DNA from: Escherichia coli
GTDB taxonomy: Bacteria > Pseudomonadota > Gammaproteobacteria > Enterobacterales > Enterobacteriaceae
Length of the DNA stretch: 64,000 bases
Reading direction: 5' to 3' (one strand)
NCBI RefSeq assembly: GCF_013122565.1
Contig: NZ_CP053258.1
Shown one piece after another: positions 3,096 through 6,000 of the stretch (position 1 is the stretch's first letter; each line of letters opens with the position of its first letter). A program made the position numbers.

Positions 3096-6000
3096 TAATG
3101 GCGTTAACCATGCGAGCGTGCCTGATGCGCTACGCTTATCAGGCCTACGAGACTCCTGCAATGTATTGAATTTGCATGATTTTGTAGGCCGGATAAGGCG
3201 TTAACGCCGCATCCGGCAAGAAGCTATAAGAAAAGGGCGGAGATCATCTCCGCCCTTTTTATTTCTGCAATCCGCAATTATCATCCCGCAGATCTATACT
3301 TTTTGGGTCAACACGTAACGCTTTACAGGTGATTATCATGGGGCTTTTTGATGAAGTTGTCGGCGCCTTTCTGAAAGGCGATGCGGGGAAATATCAGGCG
3401 ATTTTAAGTTGGGTTGAGGAGCAGGGCGGCATTCAGGTGCTACTGGAAAAACTGCAAAGTGGCGGCTTAGGGGCCATTCTCTCAACCTGGCTGAGTAATC
3501 AACAGGGCAATCAATCGGTGAGCGGCGAGCAACTGGAATCGGCGCTCGGCACAAATGCGGTGTCCGATCTCGGGCAAAAACTTGGCGTGGATACCAGTAC
3601 AGCTTCCAGTTTACTGGCAGAACAATTGCCGAAGATTATTGATGCGCTCTCACCGCAAGGTGAAGTGTCTCCACAAGCCAATAACGATCTGCTTTCCGCA
3701 GGTATGGAACTGCTGAAAGGGAAACTCTTCCGCTAAGCAAATGGGGAGCATGCAACCCGCGTTGCATCCCCCTTTTCCCTCGGGTGTTGTACTGATTTTT
3801 GAGCGGAATCGCGTTAGCATGGGTCAGGAACCAATCTACCTGGGGAACTCATGGCTATCAAACTCATTGCTATCGATATGGATGGCACCCTTCTGCTGCC
3901 CGATCACACCATTTCACCCGCCGTTAAAAATGCGATTGCCGCAGCTCGCGCCCGTGGCGTAAATGTCGTGCTAACGACGGGTCGTCCGTATGCAGGTGTG
4001 CACAACTACCTGAAAGAGCTGCATATGGAACAGCCGGGCGACTACTGCATTACTTATAACGGCGCGCTGGTACAGAAGGCCGCTGATGGTAGCACCGTGG
4101 CGCAAACTGCTCTCAGCTATGACGACTACCGTTTCCTGGAAAAACTCTCTCGCGAAGTCGATTCTCATTTCCACGCACTGGACCGCACCACGCTGTACAC
4201 CGCCAACCGCGATATCAGCTACTACACGGTGCATGAATCCTTCGTTGCCACCATTCCGCTGGTGTTCTGCGAAGCGGAGAAAATGGACCCCAATACCCAG
4301 TTCCTGAAAGTGATGATGATTGATGAACCTGCCATCCTCGACCAGGCCATTGCGCGTATTCCACAGGAAGTGAAAGAGAAATATACCGTGCTGAAAAGTG
4401 CGCCGTACTTCCTCGAAATCCTCGATAAACGCGTTAACAAAGGTACAGGTGTGAAATCACTGGCCGATGTGCTGGGCATTAAGCCGGAAGAAATCATGGC
4501 GATTGGCGATCAGGAAAACGACATCGCAATGATTGAATATGCAGGCGTCGGTGTGGCGATGGATAACGCTATTCCTTCGGTGAAAGAAGTGGCGAACTTT
4601 GTCACCAAATCCAACCTTGAAGATGGTGTCGCGTTTGCTATTGAGAAGTATGTGCTGAATTAATCTATGGGCGGGCAAACTGCGTGAATGCGTTTGCCCG
4701 CTTACTGATTATTGGTTTACTGCATATACAACCAGGAATTGCAGCGGTGCAGTGATAATGTCTAGCGTAACAGTCACTGGCAGTAATGCTGCGGAAACAC
4801 CATCCGGAATGCCTCTGGGTGAATGGTATTCATAAAATCGCACTTTAAATGGATGGTAGAAAGCCATTACGTTTGAGTAATCCATGTTTTTATTTTTCTC
4901 ATGGATAGTACCTTCCAGGTTTTCTACTGTCCGGGTACAGTGCTGAACACCACAAGCAAAACGATATTGTGTCACTCGTGCTTTTTCTTCTTCTGTGCTC
5001 CAGTTGTAATAGAGTGATATTGTGCCGGTAAATTTCTTTTTCCCCGCATTTAAAACAAATCTTGCGTCATCGGCAACCTGAATATTGTGCCGGTTAAGTG
5101 CTGGATCATTGAGCATCTTAACGATGTCATCGGCACCATCAGTGATAAGGTAATCCAGCGATTCCCCTACAAAAACATAGCCTTTTGTTCCATTACTATC
5201 TTTTGCCTGCGATAGCCCGGTGATGGTGTCTGACTGCGATTGATACTTTCCTGAAGTACCCTTTGCGGTATGGGAAACCAGAGCATACGAGATACAGCCT
5301 GAAAGCATCAGCGCCAGTGGGAATAAACTGGCAGCCTTAAAAAATCTCTTAAAATTCAACTTCATGATTAATCCTTTAAACGAGTAGCTAAGCCGTTGAA
5401 AGCATACTCTTCTTTCCCTCCTGTTTAGCGCCTGTTCTCCCTTTTCAGATTTCTGCCCGACGCATGTCATTTTTTTATGCATTGTTCTTTTTGTGATCTA
5501 AATTGTAGTACAACAATATAAGTTTGTACTACATTACACGCACGGCAAACGCGAACGTCATCACGCTGGTACTACAAAGTTGCCGCGTTATGCATCGATC
5601 GGGGTAAAGTAGAGAAGAACATACAGAGCACAAGGACTCTCCATGACTCTCAATAAAACCGATCGCATTGTCATTACGCTGGGTAAACAGATCGTTCACG
5701 GCAAATACGTACCAGGCTCTCCACTTCCGGCTGAGGCGGAGCTCTGTGAAGAGTTTGCAACCTCGCGCAACATCATCCGTGAGGTGTTCCGTTCGCTGAT
5801 GGCGAAGCGGCTGATTGAAATGAAACGTTATCGCGGCGCGTTTGTGGCACCGCGTAACCAGTGGAATTACCTCGACACTGACGTACTGCAATGGGTGCTG
5901 GAAAACGACTATGACCCACGGCTTATCAGTGCCATGAGCGAAGTGCGAAATCTGGTGGAACCGGCGATTGCCCGTTGGGCAGCAGAGCGCGCGACTTCCA

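What the first reader, a model, noticed from the sequence alone, without database searches (positions are those of the whole stretch)
5503..5578. Three near-palindromic GTAGTAC/GTACTAC motifs in the dgoR promoter region
ttgtagtaca (5503-5512) and tttgtactaca (5523-5533) are reverse complements of each other, and a third copy ggtactacaaa sits at 5568-5578, all within 140 bp upstream of dgoR. This looks like a GntR/FadR-type operator array for autoregulation of the dgo operon.
Basis: partly seen in the sequence, partly recalled or inferred. Interest (0 to 1): 0.35.

Follow-up and report, generated by a model that had tools for sequence, protein, structure and literature searches.

The report
Known DgoR operator sites before dgoR
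The three short palindromes upstream of dgoR are the binding sites of the galactonate repressor DgoR in E. coli: two are already proven by experiment, and the third was already predicted by comparative genomics, so the finding is correct but ordinary.

Summary
Three copies of the 11-bp palindrome TTGTA-S-TACAA lie at 5503-5513 (perfect), 5524-5534 (one mismatch) and 5567-5577 (one mismatch), 140 to 66 bp upstream of the dgoR start codon (5643). The window is the E. coli yidX-dgoRKADT region.

Copies 1 and 2 are the published DgoR operators IR1 and IR2. Published work shows they overlap the CRP-dependent, galactonate-inducible promoter and that DgoR binds that region. Copy 3 was listed as a predicted DgoR site by Suvorova et al. 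2015. I found no experiment on it, and Sort-Seq reported no repressor signal there.

My comparison of 79 Enterobacterales species shows a rigid three-site module:
- Site 1 is perfect in 74 of 79 species.
- Sites 2 and 3 are almost always one mismatch from the palindrome and were never scored as perfect.
- Start-to-start spacings are 21 bp and 43 bp, roughly two and four helical turns.
- Site 3 lies a fixed 36 bp before a conserved GGTAAAGTA block, within the published downstream RNA polymerase site.

Verdict: already known. The only open point is what the conserved weak third site does, most plausibly as an auxiliary autoregulatory operator. Interest is low.

The parts
5492..5496 (+). CRP left half-site TGTGA, giving class II activation of the galactonate-inducible dgo promoter. 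It lies inside the conserved block TTTTTGTGATCT at 5488-5499.
   Evidence: Belliveau 2018 places a CRP site with TGTGA at -160..-140 relative to the ATG. TGTGA is at -151..-147 in the window. The block has a mean information content of 1.76 bits in 79 species. It lies a fixed 11 bp before site 1 in all 70 species where it could be scored.
5503..5513 (.). DgoR operator 1 (published IR1), the perfect palindrome TTGTAGTACAA. It overlaps the right half of the CRP site and the -35 region.
   Evidence: It falls within the published IR1 oligonucleotide and within the Sort-Seq repressor site and DgoR pull-down region. It has 0 mismatches in 74 of 79 species and a mean information content of 1.94 bits.
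5524..5534 (.). DgoR operator 2 (published IR2), TTGTACTACAT with one mismatch. It overlaps the -10 hexamer TACATT.
   Evidence: IR2 is published as having one mismatch. It starts 21 bp after site 1 in 78 of 79 species, and has exactly one mismatch in 71 of 79. Mean information content is 1.76 bits.
5530..5535 (+). -10 hexamer TACATT of the CRP-activated promoter.
   Evidence: Belliveau 2018 states that the wild-type -10 is TACATT, within -120..-100. It is at -113..-108 in the window.
5567..5577 (.). Third DgoR-type site, TGGTACTACAA, with one mismatch. It is a predicted operator with no experimental test that I could find.
   Evidence: It is listed as a DgoR_ECO site in Suvorova 2015 file S1. 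A site with 1 or 2 mismatches is present in 76 of 79 species and is never perfect. It starts 43 bp after site 2 in 69 of 76 species and 36 bp before the GGTAAAGTA block in 74 of 76. Mean information content is 1.62 bits, against 0.42 for the preceding spacer.
5573..5613 (+). Downstream RNA polymerase site, a weak promoter seen in glucose. It includes the conserved block GGTAAAGTAG at 5602-5611. I infer a -10 of TAAAGT at 5605-5610 and a -35-like TTGCCG at 5580-5585.
   Evidence: Belliveau 2018 reports an RNAP site at -70..-30 relative to the ATG. The block has a mean information content of 1.70 bits. The hexamer assignments are my inference from the sequence; the simple promoter scan did not call them.
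5643..6332 (+). dgoR, a FadR-subfamily GntR repressor and the first gene of dgoRKADT.
6329..10365 (+). dgoK (6329-7207), dgoA (7191-7808), dgoD (7805-8953) and dgoT (9028-10365), the regulated catabolic and transport genes.
   Evidence: DGOK is PF05035. The aldolase (NF006600), galactonate dehydratase (NF010624) and D-galactonate transporter (TIGR00893) all score above their cut-offs.

Best explanation
The region is the control region of the E. coli D-galactonate operon dgoRKADT.

Shown by published experiments: DgoR represses the operon by binding two closely spaced inverted repeats that overlap the galactonate-inducible promoter, and DgoR forms dimers. The authors consider it likely that two dimers bind, one per repeat. 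D-galactonate binding to DgoR releases the DNA, and CRP-cAMP at TGTGA (5492-5496) then activates transcription in class II fashion.

Inferred from the sequence and those papers: operators 1 (5503-5513) and 2 (5524-5534) are 21 bp apart centre to centre, so they lie on the same face of the helix. Site 1 covers the right half of the CRP site and the -35 region. Site 2 covers the -10 hexamer TACATT.

Inferred here for the third copy (5567-5577): it is a conserved, deliberately weak auxiliary DgoR operator. It sits about 30 bp downstream of the inferred start of the main promoter. It also ends 2 bp upstream of the -35-like hexamer of the weak downstream promoter that supplies basal DgoR. Its 43-bp distance from site 2 keeps it on the same helical face.

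The most likely action of site 3 is negative feedback on basal dgoR transcription. It may also stabilise the repressor complex at sites 1 and 2 through dimer-dimer contact.

My sub-probabilities are: sites 1 and 2 as DgoR operators 0.97; site 3 bound by DgoR in vivo about 0.6.
For: - **Coordinates and chance:**
- **Gene identities:**
- **Published IR1 sequence:** it is identical to window 5499-5520, with the statement of two inverted repeats overlapping the promoter, DgoR dimers, and D-galactonate as effector (PMC11705089; PMC12288454; PMC7674646).
- **Sort-Seq and pull-down:** the Sort-Seq repressor signature at -140..-110 disappears in a dgoR deletion strain. DgoR was pulled down on the -145..-110 fragment. 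The same paper reports the CRP TGTGA site, the -10 TACATT and an RNAP site at -70..-30 (PMC6003448).
- **Family consensus:** the FadR-subfamily consensus is TKGT-N3-ACMA, and DgoR is named among the 3-nt-spacer members (PMC4494728). All three copies fit it.
- **Prior prediction:** three predicted sites per genome are listed for E. coli, E. fergusonii, Salmonella, Klebsiella, Enterobacter, Cronobacter, Shigella and Serratia.
- **My comparison of 79 species (loci):**
  - Mismatches: site 1 has 0 in 74 of 79; site 2 has 1 in 71 of 79; site 3 has 1 in 67 and 2 in 9 of 79.
  - Spacings: 21 bp in 78 of 79, and 43 bp in 69 of 76.
  - Fixed distances: CRP block to site 1 is 11 bp, and site 3 to GGTAAAGTA is 36 bp, while the 5' UTR length varies from 34 to 53 bp.
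  - Information content: peaks of 1.94, 1.76 and 1.62 bits at the sites against 0.42-0.63 in the spacers.
- **Site 3 pattern:** the conserved columns are the GTA...CAA contact positions. The mismatch sits in the left half in Escherichia, Salmonella and Klebsiella (TgGTA/TaGTA) and in the right half in Enterobacter and others (TgCAA/TtCAA). This fits selection for a weak DgoR site rather than for one fixed sequence.
Against: - For site 3, no binding or mutational data exist in any paper I could read.
- Base-pair-resolution Sort-Seq in glucose reported a repressor signature only at -140..-110 and none at -76..-66.
- The downstream promoter was visible in glucose with DgoR present, so site 3 cannot repress it strongly.
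- The primary paper on the operators (Singh et al. 2019, PMC6351737) is not held. I could not check whether it tested longer fragments or mapped the transcription start.
- The species compared are related, so the counts overstate the number of independent events.
- The fixed spacings fit both the looping idea and a simple promoter-overlap role, and do not separate them.
Confidence: 0.85

Rival explanations
1. Only copies 1 and 2 are DgoR operators. Copy 3 is conserved for another reason, for example as part of the upstream edge of the downstream promoter (an UP-element or -35-proximal region), or as the site of another regulator. Its resemblance to the DgoR box would then be residual or coincidental.
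For: - Experimental papers describe two inverted repeats only.
- Sort-Seq reported no repressor signature at -76..-66.
- Site 3 is locked 36 bp from the conserved GGTAAAGTA block of the downstream RNAP site, as expected for a promoter element.
- The E. coli left half TGGTA also resembles the TGGT half-sites of other FadR-family regulators such as PdhR and FadR. That resemblance is from my own knowledge and was not tested.
Against: - The conserved columns are exactly the DgoR half-site bases G, T, A ... C, A, A, at 1.8-2.0 bits.
- The site stays within one mismatch of the DgoR palindrome in 67 of 79 species, although the mismatch position differs between lineages. A promoter element has no reason to show that.
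- The cross-species consensus TTGTACTGCAA is not PdhR- or FadR-like.
- Its phase with sites 1 and 2 (43 bp) is conserved across a spacer whose sequence is not (0.42 bits).
Confidence: 0.25
2. Copies 1 and 2 matter as the two arms of a hairpin or cruciform (a 10-bp stem with a 10-nt loop) in DNA or RNA, rather than as protein-binding palindromes.
For: As single-stranded DNA, 5498-5540 folds into a 10-bp stem at -7 kcal/mol, z = -2.9 against shuffles.
Against: - The complementarity follows automatically from each copy being self-palindromic.
- Where site 2 varies between species (TACTA, TACGA, TACCA, TAGTA...), site 1 stays TTGTAGTACAA with no compensating change.
- The region lies upstream of the inferred transcription start of the main promoter and between divergent genes, so it is neither a terminator nor part of the main mRNA.
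- DgoR binding to this DNA is shown experimentally.
Confidence: 0.02
3. The cluster is a chance occurrence of an A+T-rich word in an intergenic region.
For: The total count of GTASTAC in the window (3) is not above expectation (2.19).
Against: All three hits fall within 75 bp. The 11-mer with at most 1 mismatch gives 3 hits against 0.63 expected. The sites are conserved in sequence and spacing in 79 species.
Confidence: 0.01

Closest known systems
E. coli DgoR operators IR1 and IR2 of the dgoRKADT promoter (Singh et al. 2019, as cited in PMC11705089; Belliveau et al. 2018, PMC6003448)
   Same: Identical. Window 5499-5520 equals the published IR1 oligonucleotide. The published repressor region -140..-110 equals 5503-5533. 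[quoted passage not shown]
   Different: Nothing differs for copies 1 and 2. Copy 3 is not part of the experimentally described element.
Comparative-genomics DgoR sites in the data set of Suvorova, Korostelev and Gelfand 2015 (PMC4494728, file S1; the paper says its binding-site data are available in RegPrecise)
   Same: It lists exactly these three E. coli sites: CTAAATTGTAGTACAACAATA, TAAGTTTGTACTACATTACAC and CACGCTGGTACTACAAAGTTG. It also lists three-site arrays in seven other enterobacterial genomes.
   Different: It is a prediction only. It gives no analysis of spacing, of the hierarchy of one perfect and two imperfect sites, or of the relation of site 3 to the downstream promoter. Those points are added here from 79 species.
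FadR-subfamily GntR operators in general (consensus TKGT-N3-ACMA; FadR-DNA structure 1HW2)
   Same: All are A/T-rich palindromes with GT and AC separated by 3 nt. The regulator has a winged-helix GntR domain plus an FCD domain. The published view is that one dimer binds per palindrome and an acidic metabolite acts as inducer.
   Different: The DgoR box has TTGTA/TACAA half-sites rather than the TGGT/ACCA of FadR and PdhR. Here three boxes are arranged in helical phase.
Multi-operator FadR-family promoters such as E. coli lldPRD, where LldR is said to have an upstream operator and a second one downstream of the start, with looping proposed (recalled from memory, not checked here)
   Same: It is a possible analogue for a strong promoter-proximal operator combined with an auxiliary operator downstream of the transcription start.
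   Different: No evidence exists that DgoR dimers interact or loop DNA. Site 3 is only 43 bp from site 2, a short distance for a loop.

Membership tests
FadR-subfamily GntR operator (DgoR box) | Palindrome fitting TKGT-N3-ACMA, with GT and AC separated by 3 nt. | tested here: met
   Site 1 is TTGT-AGT-ACAA, site 2 is TTGT-ACT-ACAT (outermost base off) and site 3 is TGGT-ACT-ACAA. The consensus is from PMC4494728.
FadR-subfamily GntR operator (DgoR box) | Located in the promoter region of the regulator's own operon or of its target operon. | tested here: met
   The sites lie at -140 to -66 relative to the dgoR ATG, and dgoR is followed by dgoKADT. They overlap the published CRP, -10 and RNAP sites.
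FadR-subfamily GntR operator (DgoR box) | Cognate regulator of the FadR subfamily (GntR wHTH plus FCD domain) encoded at the locus. | tested here: met
   PF00392 (E = 2.9e-14) and PF07729 (E = 2.1e-27). PDB 7C7E matches at E = 3.7e-149.
FadR-subfamily GntR operator (DgoR box) | Conservation of the sites in orthologous promoters (phylogenetic footprint). | tested here: met
   In 79 species, information content is 1.94, 1.76 and 1.62 bits at the sites against 0.42-0.63 in the spacers. Spacings of 21 and 43 bp are conserved.
FadR-subfamily GntR operator (DgoR box) | Direct, effector-sensitive binding by DgoR to sites 1 and 2. | not testable with these tools
   This is established in the literature by DNA-affinity mass spectrometry on -145..-110 and by EMSA with a 55-nt two-repeat probe released by D-galactonate.
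FadR-subfamily GntR operator (DgoR box) | Direct binding by DgoR to site 3, and an effect of site-3 mutations on expression. | not testable with these tools
   No experiment was found. Sort-Seq reported no repressor signature there. The 250-bp EMSA fragment of PMC7674646 may contain site 3, but individual sites were not resolved.

The most novel reading that the evidence does not exclude
Site 3 is a functional operator that selection keeps weak: it was never scored as perfect in 79 species, yet is almost always exactly one mismatch away. In this reading it acts as a set-point device. By touching the -35 edge of the weak downstream promoter, it holds basal DgoR near the concentration needed to fill the strong sites. 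It may also contact the dimers at IR1 and IR2 in helical phase (43 bp) to tighten repression. This would make the dgo control region a three-operator circuit rather than the published two-operator one.
Probability: 0.4. Interest if true: 0.35.

Novelty: already known. Interest (0 to 1): 0.15.

Why it matters
dgoR is a recurrent target of adaptive loss-of-function mutations when E. coli colonises the mouse gut (PMC7064181). Natural DgoR variants also change growth on galactonate (PMC12288454). Correct annotation of its operators therefore has practical value for reading natural variation in this promoter.

The finding itself adds nothing new for sites 1 and 2. The small residual value is the third site. 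It is strongly conserved and always imperfect, is missing from the experimental model of the promoter, and could be tested with a few reporter constructs.

Tried and rejected
- **Simple sigma-70 scan of 5300-5750**. It found only one weak site, far upstream (5328-5355), and none of the published promoters. The scan is uninformative for this CRP-dependent promoter.
- **Hairpin or cruciform reading of copies 1 and 2**. Rejected because there are no compensatory changes between the copies.
- **Second CRP site using the conserved TCACG (5561-5565).** The partner half-site at 5550-5554 is not conserved. Left as an unexplained note.
- **Primary operator paper, Singh et al. 2019**, and the supplement of Belliveau 2018. 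Neither is held, so I could not check transcription start mapping or the raw expression shifts at site 3.
- **Full-text searches for the site-3 sequence and for DgoR footprint, ChIP or SELEX data**. No experimental treatment of site 3 turned up.
- **The P22 pid paper**. It contains nothing on operators.
- **Per-site polymorphism count across about 5,000 E. coli genomes.** Considered and dropped. Short megablast queries would be confounded by neighbouring polymorphisms such as G5579A. Only three E. coli alleles were aligned.

Full report
**Observation.** The next ORF, 5643..6332 on the + strand, starts 140 to 65 bp downstream. The natural unit is an 11-bp palindrome, TTGTA-S-TACAA:
- Site 1, 5503-5513, TTGTAGTACAA, is perfect.
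- Site 2, 5524-5534, TTGTACTACAT, has one mismatch.
- Site 3, 5567-5577, TGGTACTACAA, has one mismatch.

**Chance.** In the 64-kb window GTASTAC occurs three times, all here. The 11-mer with at most one mismatch gives three hits, all here, against 0.63 expected. With two mismatches the count is at chance level. Three hits within 75 bp at that background rate has a probability of order 1e-7, by my own Poisson arithmetic.

**What the locus is.** The downstream protein has a GntR winged-helix domain (PF00392) and an FCD domain (PF07729). It matches PDB 7C7E, the E. coli DgoR entry, at E = 3.7e-149. The 295-bp intergenic query hits 5,424 of 5,426 complete E. coli genomes under the annotation "D-galactonate utilization transcriptional regulator DgoR". 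The following genes are:
- 2-keto-3-deoxy-galactonokinase, PF05035;
- the KDPGal aldolase, galactonate dehydratase and the D-galactonate transporter.

This is dgoRKADT. The divergent upstream gene is yidX.

**What is published.** The Chaba laboratory papers state the following (PMC11705089; PMC12288454):
- IR1 is perfect and IR2 has one mismatch.
- D-galactonate releases the DNA.
- The IR1 oligonucleotide is CTAAATTGTAGTACAACAATAT, which is window 5499-5520.

Belliveau et al. 2018 (PMC6003448) independently found:
- a repressor signature at -140..-110 relative to the ATG, which is 5503..5533 and covers copies 1 and 2;
- loss of that signature in a dgoR deletion strain;
- DgoR as the protein pulled down on the -145..-110 fragment;
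- a class II CRP site with TGTGA (5492-5496);
- a non-optimal -10 of TACATT (5530-5535, inside site 2);
- a further RNA polymerase site at -70..-30 (5573..5613).

Suvorova et al. 2015 (PMC4494728) name DgoR among FadR-subfamily regulators whose boxes have GT and AC 3 nt apart. Their file S1 lists three predicted DgoR sites for E. coli, identical to the three copies here. It also lists three sites each for E. fergusonii, Salmonella, Klebsiella, Enterobacter, Cronobacter, Shigella and Serratia.

Two sites are supported by experiment and the third by prediction.

**My own test of conservation.** I fetched dgoR loci from 80 species of Enterobacterales and analysed the upstream DNA of the 78 with enough flank, plus the window.
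- *Mismatches.* Site 1 has no mismatch in 74 of 79. Site 2 has exactly one in 71 of 79 and was never scored as perfect. Site 3 has one in 67 and two in 9 of 79, and is never perfect. One exception to the site-2 pattern is Tatumella (L074), where the perfect copy sits at the site-2 position.
- *Spacing.* Start-to-start spacing is 21 bp in 78 of 79, and 43 bp in 69 of 76 (42 bp in 6, 44 bp in 1).
- *Rigid module.* The CRP block lies 11 bp before site 1 in all 70 scorable species. Site 3 lies 36 bp before a conserved GGTAAAGTA block in 74 of 76. The distance from that block to the ATG varies from 34 to 53 bp. The module from CRP to the downstream -10 region is therefore rigid, while the leader is free to change length.
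- *Information content.* It peaks at 1.94, 1.76 and 1.62 bits per column at the three sites, against 0.42-0.63 in the spacers between them.
- *Within E. coli.* The intergenic region is rather polymorphic, but in the alleles I aligned the substitutions avoid the three 11-mers.

**Site 3 in detail.** The invariant columns are G5569, T5570, A5571, C5575, A5576 and A5577. These are the half-site bases of the DgoR box. The variable columns are 5568 and 5574.

The lineages differ in where the single mismatch lies:
- left half in Escherichia (TgGTA) and in Salmonella, Klebsiella and Citrobacter (TaGTA);
- right half in Enterobacter and many others (TgCAA, TtCAA).

That pattern is what one expects if the site is kept as a weak DgoR box. 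It is not expected if a particular non-DgoR sequence were being preserved. The species are related, however, so only a few independent events may underlie it.

Site 3 ends 2 bp before a -35-like TTGCCG (5580-5585). It lies about 30 bp downstream of the inferred start of the CRP-dependent promoter. I place that start near 5541 on two grounds: the CRP core is centred near 5499.5 and class II geometry puts CRP at -41.5, and the -10 TACATT fits that position. This start is my inference.

**Mechanism.**
- *Shown in the literature.* DgoR binds the region containing sites 1 and 2 and represses the operon. D-galactonate releases it. CRP activates the promoter.
- *Inferred.* Site 1 occludes the CRP right half and the -35 region. 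Site 2 occludes the -10. The 21-bp spacing puts two dimers on one face of the helix.
- *Proposed for site 3* (probability about 0.6 that DgoR binds it in vivo). It is an auxiliary, low-affinity operator. It damps the weak downstream promoter that supplies basal DgoR, or it stabilises the upstream complex, or both.

**Evidence against a role for site 3.** Sort-Seq at base-pair resolution reported no repressor signature there. The Reg-Seq paper lists dgoR among promoters where the authors have reason to believe there are no undiscovered sites. The downstream promoter is active in glucose with DgoR present. No experiment on site 3 was found. The primary paper, Singh et al. 2019, is not held.

**Rivals.**
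- A hairpin between copies 1 and 2 folds at -7 kcal/mol. It is rejected because variation in site 2 is never compensated in site 1, and because the DNA lies upstream of the main transcription start.
- Chance is excluded by clustering and conservation.
- The serious rival is that site 3 is conserved as part of the downstream promoter or for another factor (about 0.25).

**Verdict.** The feature is already known: sites 1 and 2 experimentally, site 3 by published prediction. The added information is a 79-species picture of a rigid module with one strong site and two weak ones, and the fixed relation of site 3 to the downstream promoter. Interest is low.

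Noticed in passing
window 5602-5611: The block GGTAAAGTAG is highly conserved, with a mean of 1.70 bits in 79 species. It starts a fixed 36 bp after the start of site 3, while its distance to the ATG varies from 34 to 53 bp. It lies in the published RNAP site at -70..-30. It is probably the -10 region (TAAAGT) of a weak downstream promoter.
   Followed up: partly
window 5561-5565: TCACG, immediately upstream of site 3, is moderately conserved (present in 8 of the 9 sequences aligned; 50-80% identity to E. coli per column across 79 species). Its role is unexplained. If it were a CRP-like half-site, it would lie near -61.5 of the inferred downstream promoter, but the partner half-site is not conserved.
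   Followed up: partly
L082 (E. coli PapM-32-1, NZ_CP049204.1 5793-10887); window 5366-5460 is the only part matched: About 400 of 5,424 E. coli genomes do not cover 80% or more of the yidX-dgoR intergenic query. In the one example examined, yidX is followed directly by cbrA and yidR, so the whole dgoRKADT operon, including the operator array, is absent.
   Followed up: partly
window 5366-5642 (yidX-dgoR intergenic region): The region is unusually polymorphic within E. coli: 1,323 records are at 90-95% identity and 150 at 80-90%. In the divergent alleles aligned (SFAD3, S22EC), the substitutions fall outside the three 11-mers, for example at 5516, 5522, 5537-5539, 5545 and 5579.
   Followed up: partly
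L056 (CACSKA010000004.1): The assembly is labelled Chryseobacterium sp. 18061 but carries an Enterobacteriaceae-type dgoR (90% amino-acid identity) with the same CRP, site 1 and site 2 module. It is probably a mislabelled or contaminated assembly.
   Followed up: no
L079 (Affinibrenneria salicis), about -102 relative to dgoR: In this Pectobacteriaceae species only sites 1 and 2 are good. At the place expected for site 3 there is TTGTGCAGCAC (4 mismatches), followed 36-37 bp later by GGTAAAGTA. The third position is therefore old but degenerate outside Enterobacteriaceae and Erwiniaceae.
   Followed up: partly
window 4709-5482 (- strand ORF): The mechanical ORF for yidX runs from an upstream ATG at 5482 and would overlap the conserved block just upstream of the CRP half-site. 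RefSeq annotates a 657-nt yidX whose start corresponds to 5365 in the window, which leaves the regulatory region intergenic.
   Followed up: yes
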